This document shows positions 13,253 through 53,498 of a DNA stretch of 64,000 nucleotides, in pieces; the stretch's first letter is position 1; every line of letters begins with the position of its first letter. The notes beneath the pieces were generated by a model. That model did no database searches. It was not told where the DNA came from and saw only the letters and a list, made by a program, of their open reading frames with translations. The position numbers were made by a program, and so were the translations under genes. The stretch lies in the IMG/VR virus record IMGVR_UViG_3300034374_006354, one strand, 5' to 3'. The DNA is from an uncultured virus (IMG/VR IMGVR_UViG_3300034374_006354) (Duplodnaviria; Heunggongvirae; Uroviricota; Caudoviricetes).

Positions 13253-16183
13253 TTAACAAAATGCAAAGTCTGATTCCAGTATCTCTGCTATATCTAAATT
13301 TCCACGTTCAGGAAATAAATCCATGGCATCTAACTGAGCCAATAGCTGCGCTAAAGGATCAGATTTATAGAAGTCCATAAATTGTTCCCTTGTTATTCTG
13401 AAGAGATCTTTCATATTACCGGGATGACAACCGAAGCTATCATGCACAGTGGTTACTATGAAGTCTGAACTATTAATAATTAATGTCAGATGTGCAGCAT
13501 CAAATGAATGAACTATATTGGGGGCTGCGCCAGTGGATTGTTTTCTCCTATCCAGCTTACCTGTCTCTTTAGGTTGAATAGTAAGTTGTATACCCTTTCC
13601 TCTATTGGATCTACAAAACCTTACTCTAACCCTTTGTTCCTTTGTTTTCAAATATTCTTGAACAGCAGGAAAGTAGGTTACTGGAACTCTCCAAGATAGG
13701 AAGGAGTTCTCCACATTTGCCCTCTCTGCCAATTTCTGAAATAGGGATAGCATGGTAGCAGGCCCTTTCAATTTCTTCAACATAGTATCCCTGAGTAGGT
13801 CTCCGAAGGGGTTTGACCAAGACTTATCTTTGAACTTTAACTCTTCCGTAAGTGTTTTAGTATCGTCAAATATCTGGTCTCTAACTCCTTGTCTGGTTAC
13901 ACCATAACCGAGGGTCATCACAGGTCTTTTTACTGCCTTTCTTTGAATCTTAAGATCATCTTTAAAAGTCATCCAGAAGGGTATAAATATCTTCTTTTCA
14001 AACTCTTTATTGTTAGTTCTCCACTCATCAAGCTCTTTGAAAGCAGCATCTTTATCCTCTTTAGTTTCTGCCTTCTCTCGTTTGAGTTTAATCTCTTTTA
14101 TTTCTTCCATGAGTCTTGGGAGTTCTTCTTTTACAGGGTGATCTAGTTTATCATAAAGATCACTAAGGGCTTCCCAAGTAGCCTCTGCGACATACATGTA
14201 TACATCCCCGGGCTCATCCGTGGGTACTAGGTTTACTAGTGGTGCGATATTTTCATCAAGTGAGAGTGCAGTTAGGTGTTGTACACCATTATTCGCATAG
14301 TGTTCAAAGAGGGGCGTTAATCCTCTTCCGATTGGTATTGTTTTAAATTTTTATATTTAAACTTATTTCCTAAAATAGAGCCCTTTTCTTTTATTTTATT
14401 AGAGTTGTGGTACTTGTCTCTGCCTTCTTTAAAAGAATCGGAATATAAGTTATTTGAATGAATTAAATTTTCTTTTGGTGTACACCACTCTAAGTTTTCA
14501 ACTCTATTATCACTTTTTATTTCGTTGATATGATTAATTTGGGGCTTATCAAGAGGATTAGGGATAAAAGCAGATGCCACTAATCTATGTACTTTACATG
14601 TTAGCTGTTTACTTTTAACCCAAAGAGTAACTATTTCATAACCATCCTTGTCTCTTCTGGTTTTTAAGTAAGAAACTCTTTTTCCTTTTATTTTACCTTC
14701 TTTATTAATATAATAACCACTATCTTCTATTTGTTTCCACATATAATTTCCTCTTGTGAAAACAATACCAATCAGCTGCATGTCACCATGCAGATCAGAC
14801 CATATCTTCTAGAGCGGTAGCCCTAGCCTCCCGTTTCGGACCACTTGGCCCTACGTCTTTCGACTGGTCGTTGCACGTTCCTAATAATTTTAGGCTTCGC
14901 TCAGGATTGTCTCTTTCGAGAGTTTCCCTGAATTAGAGAGGTTTTAGATGAGCCAGCATTAACCCATCGATGAATATTGGAAGATGACATACATAATCTT
15001 CAGTGTCGTTACCACCTATAACCTTCCACATGTCTAGCGCTCTCCATTCGAAAGCACAAGCAAGAGCAGACCACGGCTTCTCAGCCTCCATCCATCCGGT
15101 ATTAGTATCAGGAAATGCTGCCCACGAATAAATCTCATCTAGATTATCCAGAACATATTGTACCCTCTCGTCTAGAGATAGCTTATCTTGACCAATACTA
15201 TTAGCAGTATGAACAGCTAACCAATAAGCGCCTTCATCACCGAGAGGGACACCCTCGTTATACATAATGAGACCCTTAGCGTTATCTGAACTTTGCTCGT
15301 TAAGATAAGGAGTCATCGGATATATACGACCACGGAAGTCGCAATTATAAGCTTGATAGAAAGGTCGTTCACCTATTCTATCCGCTATAGTTTTAATAAA
15401 TTCTGCTTCTAGGAACATTCCTGCTCTACTAGCCACCATTTCTTCTTTGTCATGCTTGAAAGGAGAGAGTTGAGATGGTTTATAATCCCTCTTCAACAAC
15501 TCCTCTTTGGTCTGCATATTAAGAAGCTTCTTATAAACATGGAAGACATTCTGGTTAATCTTGTAAGGTGTCTTCTGTAGTTTATTAAGAGCGTTAAACA
15601 CATGTGGTGCAGAATATGGGGTAATCATTTTAAGAGTCTTAGTTGAAGCTCCTCGTATCAAAGGCGCTTTCAAATCGATATGATAGAAAGAATTCCAATC
15701 TTTAGCGGGAGTCAACAAAGGGAACTCAGGAGAGTTCTCAATATCTTCACTTAAAATAATCTTGTTTAAAAGCTCTTCATCAGTGCATATTAGTGCATAA
15801 AGAGCATTATCGTTAGCTCTGGAGGATCTACCTTTATTTACTAGTTTAATATCTAGCAGGTGGACCCCTCTATCCTTATAATCTTTATTACAAAAGGCTT
15901 CCAGAATCTTAACGCCACAATGAACAGCTGCTTTTGTTTCTTCTTTTTCTTCTTCCTCTTTAAAGTGCATTCTAATAACAGCACCTATTGAAGCAGCAAC
16001 AGAGGTCATAGAGGCTCCTTGGATAACACCAAGAACTACTTTGCTAATTACGAGTCTATAAATGTCCTCGATAGTTTCATCAAAGTTTTCCTCTAAATGT
16101 TTCCATAACCAATGTACATGACTTCGGCGGTCCTTTGTGGTGAGTAGCCTTTCTGACAAACTCGATATTATTTGATCACGCAT
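13253..16183 (-). CDS. T7-type single-subunit RNA polymerase, spliced; exons 16183-14962 and 14295-13253, about 754 aa
   Basis: DFRGRIY; spliced motif A LPIFIDG-S-NNGVQHL; motif B RKAVKRPVMTLGYG; APNIVHSFDAAHL; motif C VHDSFG; C-terminus SDFAFC. Exon total of 2265 nt is in frame. Confidence 0.95.
14296..14961 (-). mobile_element. Group I intron in the RNA polymerase gene
   Basis: P1 pairing GAUGGGU/GCUCAUC with the splice-site U.G pair; terminal G. Core AAUUCAGGGAAAC...AAUCCUGAGC, GCAACGACCA and GAUAUGGUCU. Splicing yields T+CG (Ser), restoring DGSNNG. Confidence 0.92.
14317..14781 (-). CDS. Intron-encoded NUMOD4/HNH homing endonuclease (I-HmuI-like; start probably MWKQ near 14742)
   Basis: WKQI..SGYYINKEGKI; VHRLVASAFIPNP...INHINEIKSDNRVENLEWCTPKENLIH. 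Confidence 0.88.
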   Translation of the reverse strand: MQLIGIVFTRGNYMWKQIEDSGYYINKEGKIKGKRVSYLKTRRDKDGYEIVTLWVKSKQLTCKVHRLVASAFIPNPLDKPQINHINEIKSDNRVENLEWCTPKENLIHSNNLYSDSFKEGRDKYHNSNKIKEKGSILGNKFKYKNLKQYQSEED

Positions 16184-16190
16184 ATATTAC

Positions 16191-16376
16191 CTAATCATTT
16201 GTGGGATACATATTACTTACAGTATTCCTAATAAATGTGGCCAGATCTACTTTATCACAATCTGGTTCTACAGTAAAATATTCAAGAGGATTATTAGCCA
16301 TATCAACAAGCAACATACGTACTTCTTGGACTACTTCTTCCTCAATAATTTTCTTAACTCTTTCATCCATAACCAT
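16191..16376 (-). CDS. hypothetical protein
   Basis: Short ORF directly upstream of the RNA polymerase gene. Confidence 0.5.
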   Translation of the reverse strand: MVMDERVKKIIEEEVVQEVRMLLVDMANNPLEYFTVEPDCDKVDLATFIRNTVSNMYPTND

Positions 16377-16570
16377 AAATCTTAAACCATAATATACTAA
16401 GGGAATCTACTTTTCCACTTTCTACCCAAATAGAGAATAAAGCTCTATCTCCTAAACTAAGAATAAATACAGCCCAGTCTAGATACACAGGGGTTTTATA
16501 TCCTAAGACAGTAAATAAATGAAACCAGTTTTCCATATTTACTCCAAAAAAAAAAATAAGTTAAAATCTA

Positions 16571-16659
16571 ACCCCCTGCAACTAGACTGGATTCCTTTAT
16601 GCTATAGAGTGATCAATTTCACTCAGGAGCATAAAAGAATCCTGCCTAGCGCAGGGGGT
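16571..16659. other. Long imperfect inverted repeat (RNase III-site-like or terminator-like) enclosing a promoter motif
   Basis: Nested pairings accccctgc/gcagggggt, ctag/ctag, ggattcctttatgct/agcataaaagaatcc and gagtga/tcactc. Confidence 0.75.
16602..16618 (-). promoter_or_regulatory. Phage RNAP promoter motif AATTGATCACTCTATAG
   Basis: Repeated 17-mer resembling T7/T3/SP6 promoters (...CACTATAG); intergenic and co-oriented with genes. Confidence 0.75.
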
Positions 16660-16744
16660 AGTAAGTAGAAGAGATACCATCTTCAATTTGGAAAGGGCTT
16701 AACCCACACAGTAATTGTGGTGGGAGTTACCTTGTCTCGCTTAT

Positions 16745-16960
16745 TTAGTCTTTATCTTCTAGAGATGCATTAATTGGATGATCCTGTTTCTTATTAGCAA
16801 ATTTCTGCCTAGCGAAGAAAACCCTTTTCTTTTGATCTTTGGACAGGGCATTCCATTGTTTATCCGTAAATGGATAAAAGGCTTTTTGCTTAAGAGACAT
16901 TCTCTCGAATTGCTCATCAGTAATCAGCGGGATTTCAAATAGTTCCTTAAGCATCAGCAT
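16745..16960 (-). CDS. hypothetical protein
   Basis: ORF in the small-gene cluster. Confidence 0.55.
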   Translation of the reverse strand: MLMLKELFEIPLITDEQFERMSLKQKAFYPFTDKQWNALSKDQKKRVFFARQKFANKKQDHPINASLEDKD

Positions 16961-17327
16961 ACTCCTTTCGAAAGAAGTCTTTTACTTGTTGGAAATATTC
17001 TTCCTTCTTTGCACCGAAGATAGTGTTGGTAAAAGCAGGAATCTGCATAAAATGCAAACCGTAGTAGTCCTTGGCATCTAGGAGATTATGAAAAATCCTA
17101 GACTTAGCTTCTACCTCAGTTGCCTCTTTCATACCAAGAATACTGATATCATCAAACATTTCCTCTACAGGAAGTGTAACATGACCGAGAGTATTAATGA
17201 TTTCTACCATGTCTTCTTGCGAAAAACGATTTACTTGAGTATTCATACCTATCTCCTTAAATGAGTGAAGTAAAGAATTTTTTAGCAGATTCAAACTTAG
17301 CTTCTGCTTTATCCATAAGGGTTTCAT
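16947..17327 (-). CDS. hypothetical protein (start probably MNTQ near 17246)
   Basis: AAGGAG SD before the internal ATG. Confidence 0.55.
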   Translation of the reverse strand: MKPLWIKQKLSLNLLKNSLLHSFKEIGMNTQVNRFSQEDMVEIINTLGHVTLPVEEMFDDISILGMKEATEVEAKSRIFHNLLDAKDYYGLHFMQIPAFTNTIFGAKKEEYFQQVKDFFRKEYADA

Positions 17328-17631
17328 CGTTGAGTTCTACGAGAGCTCTATCGATTTCATCCCTAATATCAAGGAGAGATTCTTTAGCTTCTAGCTTTTG
17401 GGAGTCGTTCATTCCTTCTACAAACAGAGATCTTGCTGCAACAAGGGTTTCCTCATAAGAGGAAGAACCGAAGTTACCTGTAAGACATTCCATTACAGTA
17501 GGTTCATTATTATACTGAGCGACTTTCTCAAGCATAACACCGGAGAATGTAGCAAACACTACAACAAAAGACAACGCAATGATATTAAAAAAGGTTTTCA
17601 TAATATTATACCTCCTCAGTTTTAGGTTCAC
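17257..17631 (-). CDS. hypothetical protein with N-terminal hydrophobic segment
   Basis: GAGGAGG SD before MKTFF. Confidence 0.55.
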   Translation of the reverse strand: MNLKLRRYNIMKTFFNIIALSFVVVFATFSGVMLEKVAQYNNEPTVMECLTGNFGSSSYEETLVAARSLFVEGMNDSQKLEAKESLLDIRDEIDRALVELNDETLMDKAEAKFESAKKFFTSLI

Positions 17632-17788
17632 AGGTTACAACAACAGTATCGTCAACACCAAAAGTTTCATAAAGATTATTATGAGTTCTAGCTACTTCTT
17701 GACATTGTTGCAGAGTTTCATATTCCATAGTGGGAACAGGAGTAGTTTCTCCGGTTATCAGAAGGGTCAATACAAGTACATACCACAT
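17606..17788 (-). CDS. hypothetical small protein
   Basis: GGAG SD, hydrophobic N-terminus. Confidence 0.5.
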   Translation of the reverse strand: MWYVLVLTLLITGETTPVPTMEYETLQQCQEVARTHNNLYETFGVDDTVVVTCEPKTEEV

Positions 17789-17790
17789 GA

Positions 17791-17976
17791 TTATCTCTCC
17801 TTAGCTAGGCGACGTTTAGCTTCTTTCCATATCTTCTGCCTTTCCATAGCTCTCTTGATCTTTTCTTCTTTCTCTTGTTTTTCTTTTTCCTCCTGTGTAG
17901 GAATCAAAGATAAAAACCAAAAAAGTAGAATAAGACCAAGAATAGTTTGGATTACAGTTCCAATAAAAGCAAACAT
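17791..17976 (-). CDS. hypothetical membrane protein
   Basis: TM segment followed by a charged tail; GAGG SD. Confidence 0.55.
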   Translation of the reverse strand: MFAFIGTVIQTILGLILLFWFLSLIPTQEEKEKQEKEEKIKRAMERQKIWKEAKRRLAKER

Positions 17977-17980
17977 AACA

Positions 17981-18274
17981 TTACCTCACTTGGTAGGGGC
18001 CTCTCTCAAGTGCATTATAAAAGGATACCAGATGGTATTGATCTTTTAACACATATTCGAGACCAGATTTAAGGTCAGCTTCCGCATCCCCAGTTTTGTC
18101 TACAGTACCGACATAACATTCAAAATCACCTACTTCGAAGCAGATGATGCATCGCCCATACTTCGCAGCGACCTCTATATCCGGAGACATATGAAAACCG
18201 TCGCGGGTAAGTTCGATATTTCTCATTATATCGGATACATGTTGGATTGAACAGCCATGATAAAGTTTTAACAT
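17981..18274 (-). CDS. hypothetical protein, possible ADP-ribosyltransferase fold
   Basis: LYHG...GFHMSPDIEVAAKYG...GLEYVL pattern. Confidence 0.45.
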   Translation of the reverse strand: MLKLYHGCSIQHVSDIMRNIELTRDGFHMSPDIEVAAKYGRCIICFEVGDFECYVGTVDKTGDAEADLKSGLEYVLKDQYHLVSFYNALERGPYQVR

Positions 18275-18412
18275 TTAAGCCACCAATGCCATTACAGTTA
18301 CGAAATGTGCCAGCATAACAGTCAGAAGGAATGCACAGGCTCCATAAAGGAGCATGTTTTCCTCTTTTGTAGCGGGTACTTGTTGAAACAACATTTTAAC
18401 AAATTTGTTCAT
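18275..18412 (-). CDS. small hydrophobic protein (45 aa)
   Basis: Manual translation MNKFVKMLFQQVPATKEENMLLYGACAFLLTVMLAHFVTVMALVA; GAGGAG SD. Confidence 0.55.
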   Translation of the reverse strand: MNKFVKMLFQQVPATKEENMLLYGACAFLLTVMLAHFVTVMALVA

Positions 18413-18609
18413 TTTACAACTCCTCAAAAGATATAGATCAAAGGTTAAGTTAAGGAATAGAGATTATCCAATAGTGAATTAGGTAATACCCAATTATGCA
18501 AAATGATAAAACTAAATAACCAGAGCTATGGAGCCTTTTTATAGGTTCTATTATAGGTTCCCATTTAGGATCCTTCTTTGATTTATTTATCATTTATATT
18601 CCTTGGAAT

Positions 18610-18646
18610 TTCTTCCATTATAGATACATGGATTTTCTCAGTTTTT
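18610..18646 (-). promoter_or_regulatory. Second-class motif, copy 2 (putative early promoter)
   Basis: 33/37 identical to 21409-21445, including an identical 20-mer (minus strand ATGTATCTATAATGGAAGAA). Confidence 0.65.
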
Positions 18647-18863
18647 ACCAACGTACAACTCCATGCCAGTATAGTGAATCCCTCTGGTCTTTATTGAAAA
18701 CACCCAACCTACAGATGTCTTTATAAAGAGAGATAGAGGTTTCTCTATCTAGCCGCTTTAGGACACGTTTAGTAAACCTATGAGCAACACGAAGTTGTTT
18801 AGAAGTGTTACAACTCTTAATAACACGAATACACTTGGAACATAGAGTATCATATTTGTTCAT
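18645..18863 (-). CDS. hypothetical protein
   Basis: GAGGA SD; part of the small-gene cluster. Confidence 0.55.
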   Translation of the reverse strand: MNKYDTLCSKCIRVIKSCNTSKQLRVAHRFTKRVLKRLDRETSISLYKDICRLGVFNKDQRDSLYWHGVVRW

Positions 18864-19010
18864 AAGTTTTCCTCACATTGTCTTCGACATGATTCACGAC
18901 AATTACAAATAGCATCATCGTAAAGATCACCCATTCCTTCTTTAAAAGGACAAAGTTGAGGCTCTTCACAATGATCCCTACCATATTGTGGACACTGCAT
19001 AATTTCCCCC

Positions 19011-19700
19011 CTATACAATAAGGAAAGGCTCAGCCTTACCATCTTCGATAAGGAGACCGTAAGGAACATGAACACCATTATCACTGCCTACACAGTCAAT
19101 ACAGTAGTTTTCTTTATCCTTAGTACGAATCTCCGTTCCAGCAGAATGACCAAAGATTTGTTTAATACCGGGAATGGCCTTAAACTCTCTTTCATAATCA
19201 CACCATAAAATACCACCACAAGGAGAGTAACCTCCTCTAGCGGGGCCTACTTGTAGATAATCTCCTTCGTAAAGGTAAGTATCTACATCCTCACGTGTAG
19301 CTTCTCCACCAAAGAAATTAGCAGAGAGTCCAGCGTGAGTAATAAGAAAGCCTTCAATCTCTACATGGTATTTAAACATACCATTACCAGAGATATCCAT
19401 TCTCATTGTATCAGCATACAATTGTGTATTATGATTGTAACCACTAGAAAAACAACCATCACCGAAGTAATGATAATCGTGGTTACCAATGAGAGGAATA
19501 GCTTGCTTATTAACTGCAGCATCGGTAACTATCCTGAAAGTCTTAATACAATCTTCAGGAGATGCTGTGAAACTATCAAAGTAATCACCCACGAACAAGG
19601 TGAGGTATTCGTGAGCGAGTGCTTTTTCAGCAATCTCCCAGTTACCATGGAGATCACCTACAACCAGATATTTCATTACCGCCTCCAAGTACAAGCCCAA
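19011..19700 (-). CDS. Calcineurin-like metallophosphoesterase (start probably MKYL near 19676)
   Basis: GDLHG, GDYFD, GNHD, THAG and FGHS motifs. Confidence 0.9.
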   Translation of the reverse strand: MGLYLEAVMKYLVVGDLHGNWEIAEKALAHEYLTLFVGDYFDSFTASPEDCIKTFRIVTDAAVNKQAIPLIGNHDYHYFGDGCFSSGYNHNTQLYADTMRMDISGNGMFKYHVEIEGFLITHAGLSANFFGGEATREDVDTYLYEGDYLQVGPARGGYSPCGGILWCDYEREFKAIPGIKQIFGHSAGTEIRTKDKENYCIDCVGSDNGVHVPYGLLIEDGKAEPFLIV

Positions 19701-19706
19701 ATAGAC

Positions 19707-20003
19707 TTATTTTTCATTACTGATCCTCATAGGTTCACTACTGCTCCCAAAACAAATTCTACCTTTACCCATCCAGTCTACAATTTGAATAGTAGGATAT
19801 TTAAAAGTAGAACCCATAGTAGGATTGTCATCGGCAAATGCATTTAGTATTTCCCTAAGTTCACCAACAGTTTCAAAAGTAGGCATGTTCCTCTTCATCT
19901 CAGCAATGGCTTCCCTGTCATTCTTACGGCGCATAAATATCCGTACGAAGTAAGGGCGAAGGAACTCTGTAATAGCAGTTCCCACCGCAGTTTCTAAAAT
20001 CAC
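19707..20003 (-). CDS. hypothetical protein
   Basis: Overlap-coupled ORF. Confidence 0.55.
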   Translation of the reverse strand: MILETAVGTAITEFLRPYFVRIFMRRKNDREAIAEMKRNMPTFETVGELREILNAFADDNPTMGSTFKYPTIQIVDWMGKGRICFGSSSEPMRISNEK

Positions 20004-20353
20004 GAGAATTCTCCTTTGATAAGATCATAACTACCCGAGCCAACAAGGTAAACAGAGTCTCCTCCGTCAAGCTCATGATGCTCAACATCCTCATCACGAT
20101 CAAGAATACACTTTAGAAGGATCTGCAAAGAAACCTCGGCATCATATTCATTGTAGATCACGGCTCCAGTCTTTATAATCTTAGTAAGTACATCTTCAAG
20201 ATCATGGATACCATTATCAGGGTCTACGTGGAGAGCGAAAGCCCAACCACTAGAAGACTTACCGATATGATATTCAATACCTTTCAGACCACAGTTAGGA
20301 CAATTGCAATCACAATTATCGTATCGAGCATAATAATTAGTACCCATAGGCAC
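20000..20353 (-). CDS. hypothetical protein
   Basis: MGTNYY...CPNCG...HIGKSSSGWAF; GGAGG SD. Confidence 0.65.
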   Translation of the reverse strand: MPMGTNYYARYDNCDCNCPNCGLKGIEYHIGKSSSGWAFALHVDPDNGIHDLEDVLTKIIKTGAVIYNEYDAEVSLQILLKCILDRDEDVEHHELDGGDSVYLVGSGSYDLIKGEFS

Positions 20354-20356
20354 CTC

Positions 20357-20698
20357 CTATATCATTTGGATCCACTGTTTAGGAACTACTTTTTCCCCTA
20401 AGTCATCATCGATTAATAAAAGATTCTCAAACCTTTTAAGATCGTTTATCCTCAGCTTTGTAGCTTTCATTTGGATCCATATAGACTCCGCTTGAAAACT
20501 CCATCTGTCATAAGGAACACGATAGGATATGACGGGACCAAAGAAGAAAAACTGCTTACGTAAATAGGTAATCTCTTCTTTATGACGAAGCTTAAGTTTA
20601 TCCATATACGATTGATCTTCTTTGATTACATCACGAACCTGTTTGAGAACTTCCTCGGTTTTCTCAGGATTGAGAATTACCATTCCTTCTTGTTTCAT
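20357..20698 (-). CDS. hypothetical protein
   Basis: GGAGGAG SD. Confidence 0.6.
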   Translation of the reverse strand: MKQEGMVILNPEKTEEVLKQVRDVIKEDQSYMDKLKLRHKEEITYLRKQFFFFGPVISYRVPYDRWSFQAESIWIQMKATKLRINDLKRFENLLLIDDDLGEKVVPKQWIQMI

Positions 20699-20919
20699 GT
20701 AGTCTCCTCCCTGAAATCAATAGCCTCATCAATAAGCGAACTTAAAACATCATTCACAACAGACAACTCTACCCCTCGGCTCTCAAGCTCATAAAGAGCC
20801 ATTGCACGATAGAATAGAGTGTAACTACGGGCTCTTACCTTTGACCACAACTCGTCCTTAGTGGCACAAGTAAGAGAGGTAGGCCTTTGTAAATCACGAA
20901 CTCTTAATTCAACCATCAC
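20695..20919 (-). CDS. hypothetical protein
   Basis: Overlap-coupled ORF. Confidence 0.55.
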   Translation of the reverse strand: MMVELRVRDLQRPTSLTCATKDELWSKVRARSYTLFYRAMALYELESRGVELSVVNDVLSSLIDEAIDFREETT

Positions 20920-21056
20920 AATACTCCATTAGCAAGAACAACAGCAACGATTACCACAGTGAAACAACCTGAGATAAATCCCCAAATCCAACCACGATCA
21001 CGAGCATTCAGCAAGTGAAGTTCATTGTATTTCAATTCAAGTAATTCAGATTTCAT
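20916..21056 (-). CDS. small membrane protein (46 aa)
   Basis: Manual translation MKSELLELKYNELHLLNARDRGGIWGFISGCFTVVIVAVVLANGVL; AAGGAG SD. Confidence 0.55.
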   Translation of the reverse strand: MKSELLELKYNELHLLNARDRGWIWGFISGCFTVVIVAVVLANGVL

Positions 21057-21067
21057 TTCAAATCTCC

Positions 21068-21169
21068 TTAAGCAGCCAAGGCTACCAGAACAAGTTTAGA
21101 GCCCCAAGTCATAACTGCAAACAGAGCTACATAGAATACTACTACAGATACATCTTTTAGAAATTTCAT
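21068..21169 (-). CDS. small membrane protein (33 aa)
   Basis: Manual translation MKFLKDVSVVVFYVALFAVMTWGSKLVLVALAA; GGAGG SD. Confidence 0.5.
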   Translation of the reverse strand: MKFLKDVSVVVFYVALFAVMTWGSKLVLVALAA

Positions 21170-21179
21170 TAGAACCTCC

Positions 21180-21197
21180 AAAAGGGGCTTTCGCCCC
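21180..21197 (-). terminator. Short hairpin, possible terminator
   Basis: GGGGC-GAAA-GCCCC followed by UUUU on the minus strand. Confidence 0.5.
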
Positions 21198-21202
21198 CGG
21201 TG

Positions 21203-21364
21203 TTAGGAAAGAAAGAAAAGAGACCAGCTTACAAAACTGGTCGCAAGCATGATAACCATGAATCCACCTGCAGAGAAAGCAAAGAGGTATCTCTCACTTT
21301 CATTTGCGGGATCATAGCCCATCATTACTTTGAAAAGCATTGCAATACTTTTAAGAAAGAACAT
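21203..21364 (-). CDS. small membrane protein (53 aa), first gene after the second-class motif
   Basis: Manual translation MFFLKSIAMLFKVMMGYDPANESERYLFAFSAGGFMVIMLATSFVSWSLFFLS; AGGAG SD. Confidence 0.55.
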   Translation of the reverse strand: MFFLKSIAMLFKVMMGYDPANESERYLFAFSAGGFMVIMLATSFVSWSLFFLS

Positions 21365-21408
21365 AATCGTCTCCTATAGACATTGATTAAAGATTAAGTA
21401 GAAGAGAA

Positions 21409-21445
21409 TTCTTCCATTATAGATACATCATTTTTCTCACTTTTT
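21409..21445 (-). promoter_or_regulatory. Second-class motif, copy 1 (putative early promoter)
   Basis: Near-identical to 18610-18646; directly downstream of the strong terminator and upstream of the small-gene cluster. Confidence 0.65.
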
Positions 21446-21462
21446 TGGGCCTATTTTTGCAT

Positions 21463-21502
21463 AAAAAACCCCCAAAGGTTTGGACCTTTGGGGGTTCTTT
21501 TT
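21463..21502. terminator. Strong intrinsic terminator ending the structural transcript
   Basis: 13-bp perfect stem aacccccaaaggt/acctttgggggtt with A-tract and T-tract flanks. Confidence 0.9.
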
Positions 21503-21535
21503 AGTATCTAGGATTAGGCTAACTAATCACTAGTT

Positions 21536-21886
21536 TTATTGCATCTGACCTTGGGCAGCAGCCTGTTGAGCTTCCTGAACTGGAACAACAAATTTGTTAG
21601 TCAGTTCGAGAACAACACGTGCCTCTGCACCTTTAGCAGTTACATTAGAGAGCATGCTTGCTAATACCTGCATTTCTTGCTCATCTACACCGAGAGAGTA
21701 TTCTACCGGAGCATCTGCTTCAATTTCACCTGCTTCTGCAAGTTCTTGAACGCGTTTTACTTCTGCGATAAGCTTGTCATCTACTGTTACAATAACTCGA
21801 GCAGCAGAGGCATGAATATCGGCATTACGAAGAGTCCGAATGAGAAAAGCCATCTCTTCGGGTTTAAGAGTGATATAGTTATCCAT
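21536..21886 (-). CDS. hypothetical protein with internal duplication (possible fibre chaperone)
   Basis: Two related halves (EMAFLIRTL..A.I.ASAARVI / EMQVLASML..V.AKGAEARVV); downstream of the fibre gene. Confidence 0.6.
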   Translation of the reverse strand: MDNYITLKPEEMAFLIRTLRNADIHASAARVIVTVDDKLIAEVKRVQELAEAGEIEADAPVEYSLGVDEQEMQVLASMLSNVTAKGAEARVVLELTNKFVVPVQEAQQAAAQGQMQ

Positions 21887-21904
21887 TGTTTATTCCTTAA
21901 TTAA

Positions 21905-22294
21905 TTATTGAGCCCAAGCGTCTGGGTTGTATTCTGTATCAGCATCTGCTTCAGAATCTTTCTCAGCATCGCACTTAGCTTGGCACTCTGGCAGAATTAC
22001 ATTCTTGATATATTCGTGGGCATTAGGCCAGCCTTCTGCACCAGGACGGTTTTCATTCGTAAAGATAACGAATTCTTTCAGATTAGATTCCGTGGGGAAA
22101 TCAACAAAACCATCACCATCAATATCTACGGGTGCATCATTCTCATTAAATCGCATAGCAGTTTGATATCGTGCATCAGGGCCGATAGATGAATCTTTAT
22201 AAGCATAGCTTACTTCTACGATCATGGGTACGACTGTACCATCTGCTTTTACTCGATCCTTCTTACGAGAGGATACGATTTCTACTTCCAACAT
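21905..22294 (-). CDS. hypothetical protein
   Basis: AGGAG SD; follows a promoter motif. Confidence 0.65.
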   Translation of the reverse strand: MLEVEIVSSRKKDRVKADGTVVPMIVEVSYAYKDSSIGPDARYQTAMRFNENDAPVDIDGDGFVDFPTESNLKEFVIFTNENRPGAEGWPNAHEYIKNVILPECQAKCDAEKDSEADADTEYNPDAWAQ

Positions 22295-22395: not shown

Positions 22396-22412
22396 CTTTA
22401 GTGTGATCAATT
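22396..22412 (-). promoter_or_regulatory. Phage RNAP promoter motif AATTGATCACACTAAAG
   Basis: Intergenic copy of the 17-mer. Confidence 0.75.
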
Positions 22413-31828: not shown

Positions 31829-31845
31829 CTATAGGGTGATCAATT
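31829..31845 (-). promoter_or_regulatory. Phage RNAP promoter motif AATTGATCACCCTATAG
   Basis: Identical to 59807-59823. Confidence 0.8.
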
Positions 31846-49046: not shown

Positions 49047-52000
49047 TTATGGGCCAATTCCATACCAGTCTTCTCCTTCTAGGATCAATTCCAATATGTC
49101 TTCGGCTGTAATACCATCCTTGGGGTTTAAGAGACCCAACTCTTCTGCTTCCTTAAGAAGTCTTTCATAGGACTCTTTAGAAAGCCCTTGTTTCCTCATT
49201 TCCTTGAGGGTACGAAGGAGTGTTTGACCCTCTACCGCATCCGCATATATTCTACGTAATGCCCATTTAGCATCTGTAGAATCAACGATGTTAGTAAAGA
49301 ATCCGTCATGAATAGTCGCTGTGTTCACGTTATTCGCTCTACCCCATAAGTGGAATTTGCGAACAATGGATGCGTCATTCATGTGGTTTCCATTTACTCC
49401 TAGACCGCTACGAGCATCAATAATCGATGACCTTCCTAAATATTTAGAGTCGGTTATCGCTACCTCGTAGACATTACTCACCCTCCTTCCAGTTACAGGA
49501 TCGATAAAAGAGATCCTTTCTTGAACTGTAGGACGGTATCGCTGATACAAGAGTTTACCGTCTACTGTAACCCAAGGTATGTCTACCTTTCCTGATTCAG
49601 TAATGTAAACCTCCGCAACTTTTTTCCAATATGAAATAAAGTTCTCCGTTACCGGAGCAACGTCTTTAAGGTGTTTTGACATAATACGGGCTACCTCTTT
49701 AAATTGTTGAGGGCCTACAATGCCACCTTTAACGTTGGTCAGCTTGGCTACAAAAAGCTCCGAATCAGGGTGAACGTCTCTAGCGTGTGCCAAGAGCTTT
49801 TTCCCGATTGGAACATTGTTAGTTATAGAGTAGTTTACTTCTGTTTTAAGTTCTCTTAGAGACGCCGCCACAGACGACGCATTAGATTTCTCCGCTGCTT
49901 TAATCGCATTATCAATGCCTTTATTAAAGTCTCTTAATTCATCAGCAGTTACTACTACAAAATTTTTCTTAGCAAGAACTTTAGCTAATTTAGCTTCAAT
50001 AGCCCCTGCTTGTGTTGCTTGTCCAGCACCATAAAAAGCTACCATCGATTGACCTTTAGCTGCCTTAGATAAATCACCAAAGTCTAAGTCGTTTCCTAAT
50101 GGATTTATTTTATGGAAGTCTGGATCAGATAAGGTTCTTTCTGCTACAATATCATAAAGACGATTCTTTCTTTTTGTTTTTAGAATATTAGAAGCCTGAG
50201 CTAACTGCCTATCCCTTGTGCTTAGGGCAATTAACTGAGCTCCTGAAGCAGAAGCGTCATTTTCGTTTGCTAATTGTGTGAAATAACCTTTTAATTTTCT
50301 ATTGTCAGTAAAATCACCATCTACATGCTTATAGATACGTGTATATTCAAGAGCAAGTCGAGCTAGTTTTGGAACTTCTTCAGGTTCAGTTGCCCTAATA
50401 AGAGGATGCTCTAGGAACTCCCGGATCCTACGATCCCTTTGAGTTTCTGCTAACATCAACTCCCCTATCTCTCTGAGTGCCTTCTCATTTTCTCTAAAGG
50501 CTCTTAGTCTTCCCTCATTAGTCAGAGTATTGAAAGGATCTCCTACGAGTGTTCCTAATTGCAATCGAAGTTCATTAACAGTCTCAGGACGAATTTGTTT
50601 AGATACTTTGGTATTTAAGAAGGGTCGTATGAACTCCCCTCCTGCAGGGTGAAGATACCCTTGGGTATATAATCGTCCTCTACCGTCTATCTGCGCCCAA
50701 TTCCTCCAAGATTGTTTATTAACGCGATGCCACCTTAAGGACTGCATCATGCCTGCGCCTGCTTCTCCTCTTTGAAGAACAATCTTTCGAAAACCGTTTA
50801 GCTCATCATAGTAGGCAACTCTTCCTCTGGGGTCTCTGAAATACATAAGAGATTCAAAGAAAGAGGCAAAATCATCATCAACTTCCCATTCAAAATCCAT
50901 GGCGTGATTAAGCATTCTAGAGAAATCCCTATCGATCAGGTTTTGATCATAATTACCAGAGGCTCTTCGTGTTATTACACTAAGCCCTGTTTTACGACCT
51001 CTAGAATCAAAGAACGTCTTTGATCCTGCCTTCACAGTAAGCATATCCCTTTCTCTTATGATACCAATTCGTCTAGAGTATACTAACTCCTGATATGCCC
51101 TCTGCAGTTTGAGCATTTCAGGGTCAATAATCTGGACTTCCCGGGAGATGGTATCCGCATAAGAGCCTATTCCCGGCCTTCCGGATTCGACATCGATGAT
51201 GCCTCTACGAGTAACACCTCTCATGCCAATTCTGATTTTGCCTTGGTCCTTAAGACCATCAAGAATATCTGATCCTACTTTATGATAATTTTTAACTGTT
51301 GGTGGTTTAAAGAATATATCGAAGTCGTTAGCCTCCGCTTCATAAATCTTCTTACCAATCCTAATAGCTAACAAATCATAGTCTGTAGACTCGCCTGTTG
51401 CTATGTCTGCCATTATCTCAGATAATAGCTTAGTACGTTTCTTTAAGAAATCAGGAGTAAGCTCTCTTTGTATAAAGTCTTCTCTTTTCCTGGCATATAT
51501 CCATTCAAGATCTAGAATCCTTCTTTTTCTCTCATTACCAGCTTGTAAAAAGCGAGTTATAAGATCATCTGAAGGTTCCCCATTATATCTCTTTAGAAAA
51601 GCCTTCCCAAAAGGTAAACTCTCAATTTCTTTCTTAATTTTCTTTCTAATAGATTTCTTAGTAGGAATGTAAGCAGGTACTCTTGGGAAATAAAGCCTAA
51701 GCGGTGATCTACCTTTAATATATAAATCTCTAGCTAAAGGTAATCCATTTTTAACTGCCCACTCATCTACGTATCTCTGATTTGATAATGTCCTGTCCGA
51801 CAAGTCATCAAAAGAAGTCCATTCTCCTAATATCTGAACTTGAGCATCTTCTTCTTTATTGCCAAAACGAAATATATTTCCTCGTAATCTAGATCTTCTA
51901 TCTAGAATTCTAGAAGTGTTCACTACTGAGTTCTTGAGTTCTGCTTTAAGAACGCTAGAAAGATTTACCCACGGAGTCTTATCTTTTGCGTACCTTTCGA

Positions 52001-53498
52001 ATACAATTCTAAGGTTTTCAGCAACAGCAGTTCTCTGATTGACAGATAATCCTTCATCTTCCAATGAATCTACAAAACCTGTAATCCAAGCTTTCTGTTC
52101 TGTCGTTAGTAGTTTAGATCTATTTACAAAGTCTATTCTCTCTTGGTATACTTCAAAATCAGGACTATAAATCAGTGTTGATTTTTGTTCTCCGGTTAAT
52201 GGATCAACTCCCACATTCCTTTCATCGAATTGATTATTTGCTCTCCGTCGAGTAGCACGTTTACCCGCAAGAGATGTACCTCTATAATCCACAACAGCCA
52301 AGGCGGAGGAATTATTGTGTGCCTCTGCCCTGTAAAAGACTTTAAGTTGGTTCTCAACGTCTTTATTACGAATCAAAGTCTGTGGTCTTGAAGCATCCAC
52401 TCTCAAATTATTAATAGCGGTTGCACTTAAAGCTTTCTGCTTTACTGGTGTGAAGTTTGTATTTTTATTATCCAGCCTTCGAAGTGCTTGTAATGAAATA
52501 GGTTTCCCACTTGCTGTAGTAAAACTTGTAAGCGGGAGTTGTCCAGAATCAAAAAGATCTACTTTCTGTATATCTCCTTGAAAATGGCGAACCTTAGTTT
52601 CTCTAGGTTGCCTTGTGAGCCATTGTCCATAGGTTTCCCTACTTGGCCCAATACCATCGAACTTTTTAATATTAGTTTGTTTAATAGCTTTAAGAGCTTT
52701 CTTTTTTACGTCAGGGGAAGTACTAGCTAAGAGCTCATCATAAGACTTAACAACAGGTACTAGTGTGCTACGACACCTCCAGTGTAAAGGAGGAACAAAG
52801 CGGAGGTCATCTAGGTCGTAGATTTCCCCATCGTGATGAGCACAAATGGCTGATGTACGATTATCCAATACTGCGGTAAAGCGCATGCCCTTAAGAATTG
52901 CTCTATTCTCTTGGAATGAAGCTAATTGAGCTGTAGTTTGCGTCTTAGTTACGGCAGTTCTCACTAATGCGGATGCTTGGGCTTCGGTCAATCTTGTTGT
53001 TTTTATAACCGAGCGGACTAGCTGTTTGTTGTCCCACCCTTCCCGCAAGCCTTTTGTAATAGTGGCTTGAATGCGCTTAAGTTCGTTAGCGCCGAGACCT
53101 TGGATACGCCTGCTTAGTGTTCCTTCCCCTCTGACGTTAGCACCTACGATTTCCTCAAGTACTTTAGTAGCAGCAGGTCTGCGGATTACCGCCCATTGAC
53201 CTAAGCTTTTATTGAGGTTATTAGTGCTAAAATCGGTTTCTACCAACCCAAAATCTTGCATTTGGGAGGTTACATTTACATCTAATTCTTTAGAGAATCG
53301 ACTAACCTCCTGTTTGATTTCAGGCATGTGTTGTACCGCAGTACCTTTCGTTAAGTCTTTCCCCTCTAATAATTTAGTCAAACGGGTTCTATGTTTACGT
53401 ATAGTACGTTTCGTATCCGTTTGAACACGATCCTCGTACATACGTGTCATAGCAGTATGATCAACTTGACGATCGTAAATATCATCATTGATTGACAT
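49047..53498 (-). CDS. MuF (SPP1 gp7-like) minor head protein fused to a T7-type RNA polymerase domain; putative virion RNA polymerase
   Basis: N-terminal FTAVLDNRTSAICAHHDG...PPLHWRCRSTLVP (MuF). C-terminal IDGRGRLY, NDASASGAQL (motif A), KAAKGQSMVAFYG (B), NGNHMNDAS and IHDGF (C). Confidence 0.9.
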   Translation of the reverse strand: MSINDDIYDRQVDHTAMTRMYEDRVQTDTKRTIRKHRTRLTKLLEGKDLTKGTAVQHMPEIKQEVSRFSKELDVNVTSQMQDFGLVETDFSTNNLNKSLGQWAVIRRPAATKVLEEIVGANVRGEGTLSRRIQGLGANELKRIQATITKGLREGWDNKQLVRSVIKTTRLTEAQASALVRTAVTKTQTTAQLASFQENRAILKGMRFTAVLDNRTSAICAHHDGEIYDLDDLRFVPPLHWRCRSTLVPVVKSYDELLASTSPDVKKKALKAIKQTNIKKFDGIGPSRETYGQWLTRQPRETKVRHFQGDIQKVDLFDSGQLPLTSFTTASGKPISLQALRRLDNKNTNFTPVKQKALSATAINNLRVDASRPQTLIRNKDVENQLKVFYRAEAHNNSSALAVVDYRGTSLAGKRATRRRANNQFDERNVGVDPLTGEQKSTLIYSPDFEVYQERIDFVNRSKLLTTEQKAWITGFVDSLEDEGLSVNQRTAVAENLRIVFERYAKDKTPWVNLSSVLKAELKNSVVNTSRILDRRSRLRGNIFRFGNKEEDAQVQILGEWTSFDDLSDRTLSNQRYVDEWAVKNGLPLARDLYIKGRSPLRLYFPRVPAYIPTKKSIRKKIKKEIESLPFGKAFLKRYNGEPSDDLITRFLQAGNERKRRILDLEWIYARKREDFIQRELTPDFLKKRTKLLSEIMADIATGESTDYDLLAIRIGKKIYEAEANDFDIFFKPPTVKNYHKVGSDILDGLKDQGKIRIGMRGVTRRGIIDVESGRPGIGSYADTISREVQIIDPEMLKLQRAYQELVYSRRIGIIRERDMLTVKAGSKTFFDSRGRKTGLSVITRRASGNYDQNLIDRDFSRMLNHAMDFEWEVDDDFASFFESLMYFRDPRGRVAYYDELNGFRKIVLQRGEAGAGMMQSLRWHRVNKQSWRNWAQIDGRGRLYTQGYLHPAGGEFIRPFLNTKVSKQIRPETVNELRLQLGTLVGDPFNTLTNEGRLRAFRENEKALREIGELMLAETQRDRRIREFLEHPLIRATEPEEVPKLARLALEYTRIYKHVDGDFTDNRKLKGYFTQLANENDASASGAQLIALSTRDRQLAQASNILKTKRKNRLYDIVAERTLSDPDFHKINPLGNDLDFGDLSKAAKGQSMVAFYGAGQATQAGAIEAKLAKVLAKKNFVVVTADELRDFNKGIDNAIKAAEKSNASSVAASLRELKTEVNYSITNNVPIGKKLLAHARDVHPDSELFVAKLTNVKGGIVGPQQFKEVARIMSKHLKDVAPVTENFISYWKKVAEVYITESGKVDIPWVTVDGKLLYQRYRPTVQERISFIDPVTGRRVSNVYEVAITDSKYLGRSSIIDARSGLGVNGNHMNDASIVRKFHLWGRANNVNTATIHDGFFTNIVDSTDAKWALRRIYADAVEGQTLLRTLKEMRKQGLSKESYERLLKEAEELGLLNPKDGITAEDILELILEGEDWYGIGP

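What the first reader, a model, noticed from the sequence alone, without database searches (positions are those of the whole stretch)
13253..53498. Two divergent single-subunit RNA polymerases imply a staged transcription programme
Seen: besides the MuF fusion there is a conventional T7-like RNAP (13253-16183) at the downstream end of a cluster of small genes and ahead of the replication genes. The two enzymes share only the core motifs (DGSNNGVQH vs DASASGAQL; HDSFG vs HDGFF). Two unrelated repeated intergenic motifs are present. Inference: the virion MuF-RNAP transcribes the small-gene region through to RNAP2, and RNAP2 then drives replication and structural genes. This is N4-like logic built from different parts.
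Basis: partly seen in the sequence, partly recalled or inferred. Interest (0 to 1): 0.8.

Follow-up and report, generated by a model that had tools for sequence, protein, structure and literature searches.

The report
Phage with two own RNA polymerases
This long-tailed freshwater phage encodes two very different T7-type RNA polymerases, one fused to a capsid protein and probably injected with the DNA, and each seems to have its own promoter type, which points to a two-step transcription programme that barely needs the host enzyme.

Summary
49047-53498(-) is a 1483-aa MuF head protein fused to a complete T7-type RNA polymerase with invariant catalytic motifs and no cysteine. 13253-16183(-) is a conventional 754-aa T7-like RNAP.

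The pair is conserved in Naomviridae-like phages (DSS3_VP1 and 5 of 5 long IMG/VR records).

There are two promoter-like classes. Class 1 (AATTGATCACnCTAwAG, 8 co-oriented intergenic copies) looks T7-like. It changes between lineages together with RNAP2's specificity loop.

Class 3 (AAAAAGTGAGAAAA-N7-ATCTATAAT) is almost letter-identical across the family. It has 1-5 copies per contig and always lies 0.9-9.6 kb upstream of RNAP2. It has no sigma-70 -35 element.

Best reading (about 0.55): the injected MuF-RNAP reads class 3 and expresses the early genes and RNAP2. RNAP2 then reads class 1 for replication, structural and lysis genes, including the MuF-RNAP gene.

The main rival is that host polymerase reads class 3. 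No expression or virion data exist.

This scan had already noted MuF-RNAP fusions on other DNA. I found no paper describing them.

Verdict: a new variant of N4/T7-type staged transcription.

The parts
49047..53498 (-). MuF-RNAP fusion gene (1483 aa), directly downstream of the portal gene 53961-55589
   Evidence: Phage_Mu_F plus RNA_pol. One search found at least 250 homologous clusters of about 1450-1500 aa.
52761..53075 (-). MuF (SPP1 gp7-like) head-morphogenesis domain, aa 142-246. It holds the protein's only two cysteines (C219, C242).
   Evidence: (E 2.3e-15).
49050..51818 (-). Complete T7-type RNA polymerase module, aa about 561-1483, free of cysteine
   Evidence: Model with pLDDT 81 and pTM 0.74. 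Foldseek finds T7 RNAP at E 5.8e-19. VIA gives Z 28.4 to T7 RNAP residues 36-882 and Z 15.7 to N4 mini-vRNAP. The motifs are invariant in 30 sequences. Cysteine count.
13253..16183 (-). RNAP2: conventional T7-like RNAP gene, 754 aa after splicing, ending ...DFAFC
   Evidence: (E about 1e-25 to T7 and mitochondrial RNAP).
14296..14961 (-). Group I intron (666 nt) inserted in the motif A codons (D-G-S). The 5' exon ends in U, which can pair with G in a 7-bp P1 helix (GAUGGGU / GCUCAUC). The last intron base is G.
   Evidence: Rfam at 86.5 bits. Sequence read. Junction confirmed by intron-less homologues.
14317..14741 (-). HNH_3 homing-endonuclease gene in the 3' part of the intron. The likely start is the ATG at 14741, behind AAGAGGAAA. 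The longest ORF starts at 14781.
   Evidence: PF13392, E 3.3e-10.
21409..21445 (-). Class-3 motif, copy 1 (AAAAAGTGAGAAAAATGATGTATCTATAATGGAAGAA). It lies just after a hairpin with a T run and about 45 nt before an RBS and small ORF.
18610..18646 (-). Class-3 motif, copy 2, about 15 nt before the RBS of ORF 18450-18593
16191..21400 (-). Candidate early block: about 18 small ORFs, only one with a family match (a weak metallophosphoesterase match, 19011-19700), running into RNAP2
   Evidence: No homologues in DSS3_VP1, G005 or Kolga.
21467..21496 (-). Strong hairpin (13 pairs) followed by a T run on the minus strand. It insulates the early block from the genes upstream.
   Evidence: and the sequence read.
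16602..16618 (-). Class-1 (T7-like) motif, 0 mismatches, 420 nt upstream of RNAP2
   Evidence: Conserved in L091 and L092.
22396..22412 (-). Class-1 motif ahead of genes 21905-22294 and 21536-21886
31829..31845 (-). Class-1 motif inside the tail module
59807..59861 (-). Two tandem class-1 motifs (59807-59823 and 59845-59861) at the head of the lysis, packaging, head and tail block, which includes the MuF-RNAP gene
60226..60242 (-). Class-1 motif ahead of 59860-60195
62241..62257 (+). Class-1 motif ahead of the plus-strand gene 62273-62965
63012..63028 (+). Class-1 motif ahead of the plus-strand gene 63275-63631
10634..10650 (-). Weak class-1-like site (3 mismatches) inside the replication block
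   Evidence: Also present in L089 and L090.

Best explanation
The phage runs a two-polymerase cascade.

Step 1 (inferred). The 1483-aa MuF-RNAP is built into the capsid through its portal-associated MuF domain and leaves the particle with the DNA.

Step 2 (inferred). In the cell it starts transcription at the class-3 promoters, which the family keeps almost letter for letter (AAAAAGTGAGAAAA-N7-ATCTATAAT; here at 21409-21445 and 18610-18646). This yields the small early genes and, by read-through, RNAP2.

Step 3. The RNAP2 mRNA must lose a self-splicing group I intron that sits in the motif A codons before an active enzyme can be made. The sequence shows this requirement; that splicing occurs is inferred.

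Step 4 (inferred from position and co-variation). RNAP2 reads the lineage-specific T7-like class-1 promoters (AATTGATCACnCTAwAG). These drive its own gene, the replication genes, the lysis, packaging, head and tail block and the plus-strand block. That includes the MuF-RNAP gene for the next generation of particles.

The host polymerase would be needed little or not at all.
For: The fused polymerase looks active and looks injected:
- It is a full T7-type fold (model pLDDT 81; Z 28.4, rmsd 3.7 A over 513 residues to T7 RNAP).
- The DxRGR motif and motifs A, B and C are invariant in 30 sequences of about 50% identity.
- It sits next to the portal gene and has a MuF domain.
- It has 0 cysteines in its last 923 aa, as do 113 of 114 full-length homologues. 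N4 gp50 has 0 in 3500 aa. RNAP2 has 9 and T7 RNAP has 12.
- An exhaustive phmmer search finds this polymerase clade essentially only inside proteins of about 1400-1550 aa, at positions about 550-1500.

The two enzymes travel together:
- DSS3_VP1 has both.
- 5 of 5 long IMG/VR records have both.
- In the tree they form two separate clades with congruent branching.
- Pelagibacter phage Kolga has an RNAP2 relative and a 634-aa MuF without a polymerase, and it has no class-3 motif.

Class 3 behaves like an early promoter read by a conserved phage protein:
- 18 copies in 9 genomes or loci share about 30 positions at 90% or more.
- An exact-pattern scan of IMG/VR gave 58 distinct contig groups, 42 of them with the family-type flank. 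All 28 that hold enough downstream DNA have an RNAP2 gene 0.9-9.6 kb downstream on the same strand.
- Copy number is 1-5 per contig.
- No copy has a -35 hexamer at 16-18 nt spacing or a TG extension (read).
- Sigma-70-like sites in 12-23 kb number 19, against 30 +/- 5.6 in shuffles.

Class 1 fits RNAP2:
- All 8 strong copies are intergenic and co-oriented with the downstream gene.
- In G003-G006 the first copy lies 6-25 nt after the RNAP2 stop, and none lies between class 3 and RNAP2.
- The upstream half differs by lineage: window AATTGATCAC, VP1 ATAGGGTGCG, G003/G005 ACCAGGGGACG. RNAP2's specificity loop differs in the same way, while the loop of the fused enzyme is more conserved.
- RNAP2 has diverged more than the fused enzyme (path from window to VP1: 1.72 against 1.18).
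Against: - There is no direct evidence: no virion proteome, no 5' ends, no time course.
- Class 3 contains a perfect TATAAT, so host sigma-70 polymerase cannot be excluded, whether acting alone through the -10 element or with a phage factor.
- The hosts of these phages are unknown apart from DSS3_VP1. 'Conserved across hosts' is therefore partly an assumption.
- In this window RNAP2 has a class-1 site and a weak hairpin (16641-16655) just upstream, so read-through from class 3 is assumed.
- The fused enzyme resembles T7 RNAP more than N4 vRNAP, and its candidate promoter has no hairpin. The N4 analogy is one of logic only.
- Five loci with RNAP2 (L093, L095-L098) showed no class-3 copy. They hold only 0-2.8 kb upstream.
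- EBPR siphovirus 1 has a split MuF-RNAP at 32% identity. It shows no class-3 motif in the first 50,000 of its 54,466 bases, the part scanned here; the record is a partial genome.
- The specificity-loop comparison rests on a sequence alignment to T7 at about 15% identity for the fused enzyme.
Confidence: 0.55

Rival explanations
1. A T7-like scheme. Host RNA polymerase reads class 3 as an early promoter and makes RNAP2. The capsid-fused polymerase does something else: it might pull the genome in, make primers, or read sites not recognised here.
For: Class 3 holds a perfect TATAAT. The order early promoter, then RNAP gene, then first phage promoter right after it is exactly that of T7 (the T7 layout is recalled). 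The fused enzyme's fold is closest to T7 RNAP, not to N4 vRNAP.
Against: There is no -35 element or TG extension in any of 18 copies. About 30 conserved positions lie outside what sigma-70 reads. The motif is letter-identical in phages of 34-47% G+C from marine and freshwater samples. This scheme leaves a conserved, catalytically intact, cysteine-free virion polymerase without any conserved target.
Confidence: 0.25
2. The assignments are reversed. The fused polymerase reads the T7-like class-1 motifs and RNAP2 reads class 3.
For: Both enzymes are T7-type, so either could in principle read a duplex promoter of about 20 bp.
Against: RNAP2 lies downstream of class 3, and in four relatives of class 3 only. 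RNAP2 could therefore not start its own synthesis. Class 1 varies with RNAP2's specificity loop, not with the more conserved loop of the fusion. That note is unchecked and is not independent proof.
Confidence: 0.05
3. The fusion is not injected. It acts late in the cell or is a structural relic. Class 3 is then a binding site for a regulator or an RNA element rather than a promoter.
For: Nothing shows that the protein is packaged or ejected. MuF proteins are first of all assembly factors (Pfam name).
Against: The catalytic residues are invariant over the family. Loss of cysteine parallels N4's injected enzyme. Each class-3 copy in the window sits after a terminator-like T run and 15-45 nt before an RBS and ORF. 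The spacing and orientation relative to RNAP2 are constant.
Confidence: 0.07

Closest known systems
Coliphage N4 (Schitoviridae): injected virion RNAP gp50, then RNAPII (gp15/gp16), then host RNAP
   Same: Both have two T7-family single-subunit polymerases, one in the particle and one made early. The virion enzyme has no cysteine (0 in 3500 aa in N4). There are only a few early promoters per genome (three in N4, recalled; 1-5 here). The early genes are small ORFans that include the second polymerase (for the N4 map).
   Different: N4's polymerase is the middle of a 3500-aa protein of a podovirus. Here it is the C-terminal two thirds of a 1483-aa MuF protein of a siphovirus. The fold is nearer to T7 RNAP (Z 28.4) than to N4 mini-vRNAP (Z 15.7). 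N4 early promoters are DNA hairpins (recalled), and class 3 has no conserved inverted repeat. N4 RNAPII has two subunits and N4 late genes use host RNAP (recalled). Here RNAP2 is one chain, and T7-like promoters stand before the structural genes too.
T7 and other Autographiviridae: early operon ending in the RNAP gene, then 17-23-bp phage promoters
   Same: RNAP2 matches T7 RNAP at E about 1e-25. Class 1 has the T7 layout: a variable -12 to -7 part, then CTATAG or TAAAGA. The first phage promoter lies right after the RNAP gene in four relatives. Promoter and specificity loop vary together.
   Different: In T7 the host polymerase reads the early promoters (recalled). Here a second, capsid-fused polymerase is the likely reader. 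RNAP2 is shorter (754 aa against 883) with a reduced N-terminal part. It forms its own clade with the Kolga RNAP.
Naomviridae roseophages DSS3_VP1 and DSS3_PM1 (dU-DNA siphoviruses)
   Same: These are the closest named relatives. The fusion is 44.5% identical over its full length and RNAP2 exon 2 is 44% identical. Gene order is the same. Class 3 is present at 35796 and 36243. They share a homologous dC-nucleotide deaminase and nucleotide kinase.
   Different: Identity is only about 25-65% per protein. G+C is 40% against 47.5%. The sample is freshwater. The class-1 sequence differs. DSS3_VP1 has its intron in terL, not in the RNAP gene. The published descriptions do not discuss either polymerase: 'RNA polymerase' occurs 0 times in the main texts of PMC8323127 and PMC12697855.
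MuF-effector fusions and 'polyvalent proteins' (Iyer et al. 2017, PMC5512222)
   Same: The principle is the same: an enzymatic cargo fused to MuF is delivered with the DNA (passages read).
   Different: In the passages read, that paper lists RNases, 2H phosphoesterases, RelA/SpoT and others on MuF. It states that N4-like virion RNAP modules occur only in N4-like phages. No MuF-RNAP is mentioned in those passages.
Other pairs of virion and non-virion RNAP (phiKZ-like jumbo phages; Thermus phage P23-45 with a tape-measure-fused RNAP)
   Same: The logic is the same: a packaged polymerase plus a second phage polymerase. (phiKZ: abstract of PMC4666361 seen in the listing. P23-45: recalled, not seen in any call.)
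   Different: Those enzymes are multisubunit or two-barrel types. Here both are T7-type single-subunit enzymes, and the carrier is MuF.

Membership tests
T7-like single-subunit RNAP (Pfam PF00940) | Sequence match above the curated cut-off | tested here: met
   Fusion: 29.8 bits (cut-off 22). RNAP2 exons: 81.2 and 123.5 bits.
T7-like single-subunit RNAP (Pfam PF00940) | Catalytic motifs T/DxxGR, A (Asp), B (K...YG) and C (HD) | tested here: met
   Fusion: DGRGR, NDASASGAQ, K..K.......YG and HDGF, all invariant in 30 sequences. RNAP2: DFRGR, DGSNNGVQH after splicing, RKAVKRPVMTLGYG and HDSFG.
T7-like single-subunit RNAP (Pfam PF00940) | Whole fold, N-terminal domain included | tested here: met
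   For the fusion, model residues 162-1083 align to T7 RNAP residues about 30-883 with Z 28.4. RNAP2 was not folded.
N4-like virion RNAP (gp50 family) | Closest sequence or structure relative is N4 mini-vRNAP | tested here: not met
   Z is 15.7 (2po4) against 28.4 for T7 RNAP. No N4 chain was found by phmmer at E up to 1.
N4-like virion RNAP (gp50 family) | Hairpin-form early promoters | tested here: not met
   There is no conserved inverted repeat in the 18 aligned class-3 copies. This is conditional on class 3 being its promoter.
N4-like virion RNAP (gp50 family) | Packaged in the virion and injected | not testable with these tools
   Only indirect support: the MuF domain, the position next to the portal gene and the absence of cysteine.
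MuF / SPP1 gp7 head-morphogenesis proteins (PF04233) | Domain match and position after the portal gene | tested here: met
   E 2.3e-15 at aa 142-246. The portal gene (DUF4055) is at 53961-55589, with only two small ORFs (53524-53703, 53693-53974) between it and the fusion gene.
Group I intron (RF00028) with homing endonuclease | Ribozyme core above the gathering score, U at the end of the 5' exon, terminal G, restored reading frame, and intron-less alleles | tested here: met
   86.5 bits (cut-off 50). Sequence read. 14 of 16 homologous genes are uninterrupted at this site. Splicing itself has not been shown: no read joints were found.
Naomviridae | Shared gene content and order with DSS3_VP1 | tested here: inconclusive
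   23 of the 69 window ORFs compared have a tblastn match in DSS3_VP1 at 25-65% identity, with the same module order. ICTV demarcation measures were not computed.
Naomviridae | dU in place of dT in virion DNA | not testable with these tools
   The window has a homologue of the DSS3_VP1 Dcd (41% identity) and of the nucleotide kinase. No homologue of its HD-type Dtm and no thymidylate synthase was seen in the 64 kb.

The most novel reading that the evidence does not exclude
The capsid-fused polymerase is an adaptation to a uracil-DNA genome. The incoming dU-DNA is a poor or dangerous template for host machinery. The phage therefore carries its own promoter-specific polymerase, tuned to a fixed promoter of about 35 nt that is read in its dU form. 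This would make early transcription fully independent of the host and would explain why the promoter is frozen across the whole family.

Support so far is thin:
- DSS3_VP1 has dU-DNA (PMC8323127).
- The window shares its deaminase and nucleotide kinase.
- The related phage Kolga has a thymidylate synthase, no such deaminase, no polymerase on its MuF and no class-3 motif.
Probability: 0.22. Interest if true: 0.85.

Novelty: new variant of a known kind. Interest (0 to 1): 0.68.

Why it matters
If the model holds, a globally distributed group of marine and freshwater siphoviruses runs its whole transcription with two of its own single-subunit polymerases. At least 250 protein clusters carry the fusion.

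This would be a second, independently built version of the N4 strategy. The delivery device is different (a MuF fusion) and the polymerase is T7-shaped.

It would yield two new orthogonal polymerase-promoter pairs. One has a promoter that is nearly invariant across the family. The other has natural specificity variants.

The model can be tested directly, because DSS3_VP1 and its host Ruegeria pomeroyi DSS-3 are in culture.

The finding also corrects annotation: hundreds of 'head morphogenesis' or 'minor capsid' proteins are RNA polymerases.

Tried and rejected
RNA evidence. One search found 5 freshwater metatranscriptome runs that hold 5-10% of the words of 13000-22500. Four were laid on 5500-23000. 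These are Logan contigs only, the cover is sparse, and there is no joint across either intron and no usable ends. The only consistent cover (4 of 4 runs) is 21543-22520. Contigs cannot show starts or expression level, and DNA carry-over is possible, so I draw nothing from this.

Own genome. The window's assembly is not held. The nearest record, G001, is a 29-kb fragment that holds the fusion gene only.

Sigma-70 reading of class 3. I looked for a -35 hexamer at 16-18 nt spacing and for a TG extension in all 18 copies and found none. The general sigma-70 scan of 12-23 kb gave fewer sites than the shuffles. This weakens the host-polymerase reading but does not exclude it.

Hairpin (N4-type) promoter. 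There is no conserved inverted repeat in class 3.

EBPR siphovirus 1. No class-3 motif in the first 50,000 of its 54,466 bases, the part scanned; the record is a partial genome and has no replication module. Uninformative.

Position of class 3 relative to genome ends. The contig starts of 'DTR' records are arbitrary: class 3 lies at 0.8 kb in G002 and at 23.8 kb in G004. No inference is possible.

Tree. The fused clade joins N4 RNAPII with 98% SH-aLRT, but the tool flags this as long branches meeting. I do not rely on it. The two G002 rows were dropped because my ORF extraction was broken by their introns.

Literature. Searches 'MuF' + 'virion RNA polymerase', 'MuF' + 'single-subunit RNA polymerase', 'Naomviridae' + 'RNA polymerase', a six-term search and an intron search found no description of a MuF-RNAP fusion or of an intron in a phage RNAP gene. 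The library lacks most subscription journals. I did not open the supplements of PMC8323127, and they may list these genes.
Full report
WHAT THE WINDOW IS

Almost all genes lie on the minus strand. Reading that strand from high to low coordinates, the order is:
- holin, PhoH, terminase, portal (53961-55589);
- the MuF fusion (49047-53498);
- scaffold, capsid, tail tube, tape measure, tail tip and a 2390-aa fibre-like protein;
- a block of small genes with no family name (22294-16191);
- the second RNA polymerase (16183-13253);
- a gp2.5-like SSB, nucleotide enzymes, DNA polymerase A, 5'-3' exonuclease, primase-helicase, an AAA protein and a dC-nucleotide deaminase.

A short plus-strand block starts at 60411.

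The nearest named phages are the dU-DNA roseophages DSS3_VP1 and DSS3_PM1 (Naomviridae), at 44.5% identity over the whole fusion protein. They have the same module order. DNA runs that hold the sequence are labelled freshwater metagenome.

THE TWO POLYMERASES

The fusion ORF carries a Phage_Mu_F domain (aa 142-246) and a weak but above-threshold RNA_pol match. Against PDB sequences it finds only T7 RNAP (E 9.3e-5), with DGRGR, NDASASGAQ and IHDGF aligned to T7's DWRGR, D537 and D812 regions.

An AlphaFold model of residues 400-1483 was built on 30 aligned family members chosen from the 120 listed of 250 hits. It has pLDDT 81 and pTM 0.74. Its residues 162-1083 superpose on T7 RNAP residues about 30-883:
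- Foldseek E 5.8e-19;
- VIA-align Z 28.4, rmsd 3.7 A over 513 residues;
- mitochondrial RNAPs score about Z 25 and N4 mini-vRNAP Z 15.7.

So the protein is MuF (about 1-330), then a helical linker (about 330-560, of which residues 1-489 are shared with the polymerase-less MuF of Pelagibacter phage Kolga), then a complete T7-type polymerase (about 561-1483).

The second enzyme is a clear T7/mitochondrial-type RNAP (E about 1e-25 for each half), but it is not a single ORF. Rfam finds a group I intron (86.5 bits). The sequence shows the 5' exon ending ...GAT GGG T and the 3' exon starting CG AAT AAT GGT.... Splicing at 14962|14295 therefore gives D-G-S-N-N-G-V-Q-H, which is motif A.

The exon end GAUGGGU can pair with GCUCAUC a few bases into the intron, with a U-G pair at the cut, and the intron ends in G (read). 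In 14 of 16 homologous genes the two exon matches are separated by exactly one codon. Only L089 and L090, which are 100% identical to the window, carry the intron. The intron holds an HNH_3 endonuclease gene.

The spliced protein has 754 aa and ends DFAFC. BLASTP between the two polymerases is not significant; the best match is E 0.12.

THE PAIR IS A FAMILY TRAIT

- DSS3_VP1 has both genes, annotated 'head morphogenesis' and 'RNA polymerase'.
- 5 of 5 long IMG/VR records with the fusion also have a 722-737-aa RNAP2. In G002 it is longer because of an intron.
- In a quick LG+G4 tree of 33 rows, the fused modules form one clade (100) on a very long stem. The RNAP2s form another (94), sister to the Kolga RNAP (95). 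Branching inside the two clades is congruent. The two enzymes are therefore not recent duplicates and have been inherited together.
- An exhaustive phmmer search of 1.84 billion representatives finds only 120 hits at E up to 0.001. The full-length hits are proteins of about 1400-1550 aa with the polymerase at about 550-1500.
The fusion has two, both in the MuF part, and none in its last 923 residues. The same holds for 113 of 114 full-length homologues. N4 gp50 has none in 3500 residues. RNAP2 has 9, T7 RNAP 12 and N4 RNAPII 13.

TWO PROMOTER-LIKE CLASSES

Class 1 is AATTGATCACnCTAwAG. The search found 11 matches at up to 3 mismatches against 1.0 expected. Eight of these have 2 mismatches or fewer, and all eight are intergenic and point at the next gene:
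- 16602 (before RNAP2);
- 22396;
- 31829;
- 59807 and 59845 in tandem at the head of the structural block;
- 60226;
- 62241(+) and 63012(+).

Relatives have the same 3' half (yTAAAGAr) with a different 5' half: ATAGGGTGCG in DSS3_VP1 and ACCAGGGGACG in G003-G006.

Class 3 is AAAAAGTGAGAAAA-N7-ATCTATAAT(G/A). The window has two copies, each 15-45 nt before an RBS and small ORF, and the first lies directly behind a strong hairpin with a T run.

Across relatives:
- The same sequence, with at most 1 mismatch in the specified letters, occurs in DSS3_VP1 (2 copies), G002 (2, plus one weaker), G003, G004 (2), G005, G006, L091 (2), L092 (2) and L094 (3).
- There is none in Kolga.
- There is none in L093 or L095-L098, which hold only 0-2.8 kb upstream of RNAP2.

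In the 18 aligned copies about 30 positions are conserved at 90% or more. These genomes range from 34 to 47% G+C, and their RNAPs are only 30-50% identical.

The 79 loci delivered fall into 58 groups.
- 42 groups have the family-type flank. All 28 of these that hold enough downstream DNA have an RNAP2 gene 0.9-9.6 kb downstream on the same strand. The other 14 end too early to judge.
- The 16 groups without the flank, which include all N5/N6 matches, have no RNAP2.

In G003-G006 the order is class 3, then small ORFs, then RNAP2, then a class-1 site 6-25 nt after the RNAP2 stop, with no class-1 site in between.

WHICH ENZYME READS WHICH CLASS (INFERENCE)

- RNAP2 cannot make itself, and in four relatives only class 3 precedes it. 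Class 3 must therefore be read by something present at the start of infection: the host polymerase or the packaged enzyme.
- Class 3 lacks a -35 hexamer at 16-18 nt spacing and a TG extension in all 18 copies. It is conserved over far more positions than sigma-70 reads. Sigma-70-like sites are not enriched in the early region (19 against 30 +/- 5.6).
- Class 1 varies by lineage, and so does RNAP2's specificity loop. The window group has a CRSNRGKGIQLT insert and the VP1/G00x group has a shorter, different loop. The corresponding loop of the fused enzyme keeps most positions. RNAP2 has also diverged more overall.
- The two classes share TCTATA followed by a purine, as related single-subunit polymerase promoters do.
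- The MuF-RNAP gene itself lies behind class-1 sites, which fits late synthesis for packaging.

On this basis I assign class 1 to RNAP2 (about 0.8) and class 3 to the fused enzyme (about 0.6).

WHAT IS SHOWN AND WHAT IS NOT

Shown:
- both genes, with intact motifs and fold;
- the intron and its junction;
- conservation of the pair;
- the two motif classes, their positions and their different evolutionary behaviour;
- the cysteine pattern.

Not shown:
- packaging and injection;
- activity;
- promoter function;
- timing;
- splicing;
- whether this phage has dU-DNA.

The metatranscriptome contigs gave nothing usable.

LITERATURE

The main texts of the two Naomviridae papers contain no occurrence of 'RNA polymerase' (found by term search). 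In the passages I read of Iyer et al. 2017, MuF is described as a carrier of other enzymes, and N4-like virion RNAPs are said to occur only in N4-like phages. Five searches found no description of a MuF-RNAP or of an intron in a phage RNAP gene. Subscription journals and supplements were not covered.

Two earlier notes of this scan, on other genomes, had already seen MuF-RNAP fusions. One assigned a 23-bp repeated motif to the compact second polymerase.

VERDICT

It is a new variant of the known 'virion polymerase plus second phage polymerase' strategy.

Noticed in passing
window 6532-7207 (-): The DNA polymerase A gene is also interrupted. G005 PolA residues 9-457 match 8599-7208 and residues 458-621 match 6531-6037. 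The roughly 676-nt insert holds an Endonuclease VII-type ORF (6626-7126), gives sub-threshold group I intron hits (32.3 and 24.1 bits), and shares a 41-nt stretch (7140-7180) that is 95% identical to the RNAP2 intron (14894-14934).
   Followed up: partly
L082 2130-2388; L052 5396-5662 (same as L088 477-743); L045 4999-5251; L127 29081-29761: Both polymerase genes are repeated targets of mobile elements in relatives. G002 has group I introns in RNAP2 (at another site) and in the polymerase part of its MuF fusion. L045 has one in its fusion. In EBPR siphovirus 1 an HNH gene splits the fusion.
   Followed up: partly
window 278-796 and 10180-10620: The window has a homologue of the DSS3_VP1 dC-nucleotide deaminase (41% identity), which was shown to make dUTP in that phage. 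It also has a DUF3310 nucleotide kinase. No thymidylate synthase appears in the 64 kb. The phage may have uracil DNA like DSS3_VP1.
   Followed up: partly
window 31729-31783 and 59724-59778 (-): A 55-nt element (76% identical pair) with an internal hairpin (CCCCTTAGCGGAAGC...TAAGGG-like) lies about 50-100 nt downstream of two class-1 sites. It could be a shared 5' leader or a processing site.
   Followed up: no
window 61648-62083 and 63050-63180: There are dense short repeats in the plus-strand block: TATAGGGTTCTTTAGTGGTC-like units, ATTAATGA units and four GAAGGAATAAT-like units at 11-12-nt spacing. These could be an origin, a packaging site or a regulator-binding region.
   Followed up: no
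window 22420-29592 (-): The 2390-aa ORF has about 50% G+C in a 38-40% genome. It consists largely of diverged tandem units of about 270-340 nt (8-10 copies at 60-75% identity), so it looks like a repeat-domain fibre.
   Followed up: no
window 21536-22294 (-): The two unnamed genes between the class-1 site at 22396 and the terminator at 21467-21496 are the only part of 5500-23000 covered by contigs in all 4 metatranscriptome runs laid. Contigs cannot rank expression.
   Followed up: no
window 4463-5011 and 59860-60195 (-): There are further free-standing nuclease genes: a SegE-like GIY-YIG gene between the exonuclease and the primase-helicase, and a double zinc-ribbon EndoVII/HNH-like gene behind a class-1 site.
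   Followed up: no
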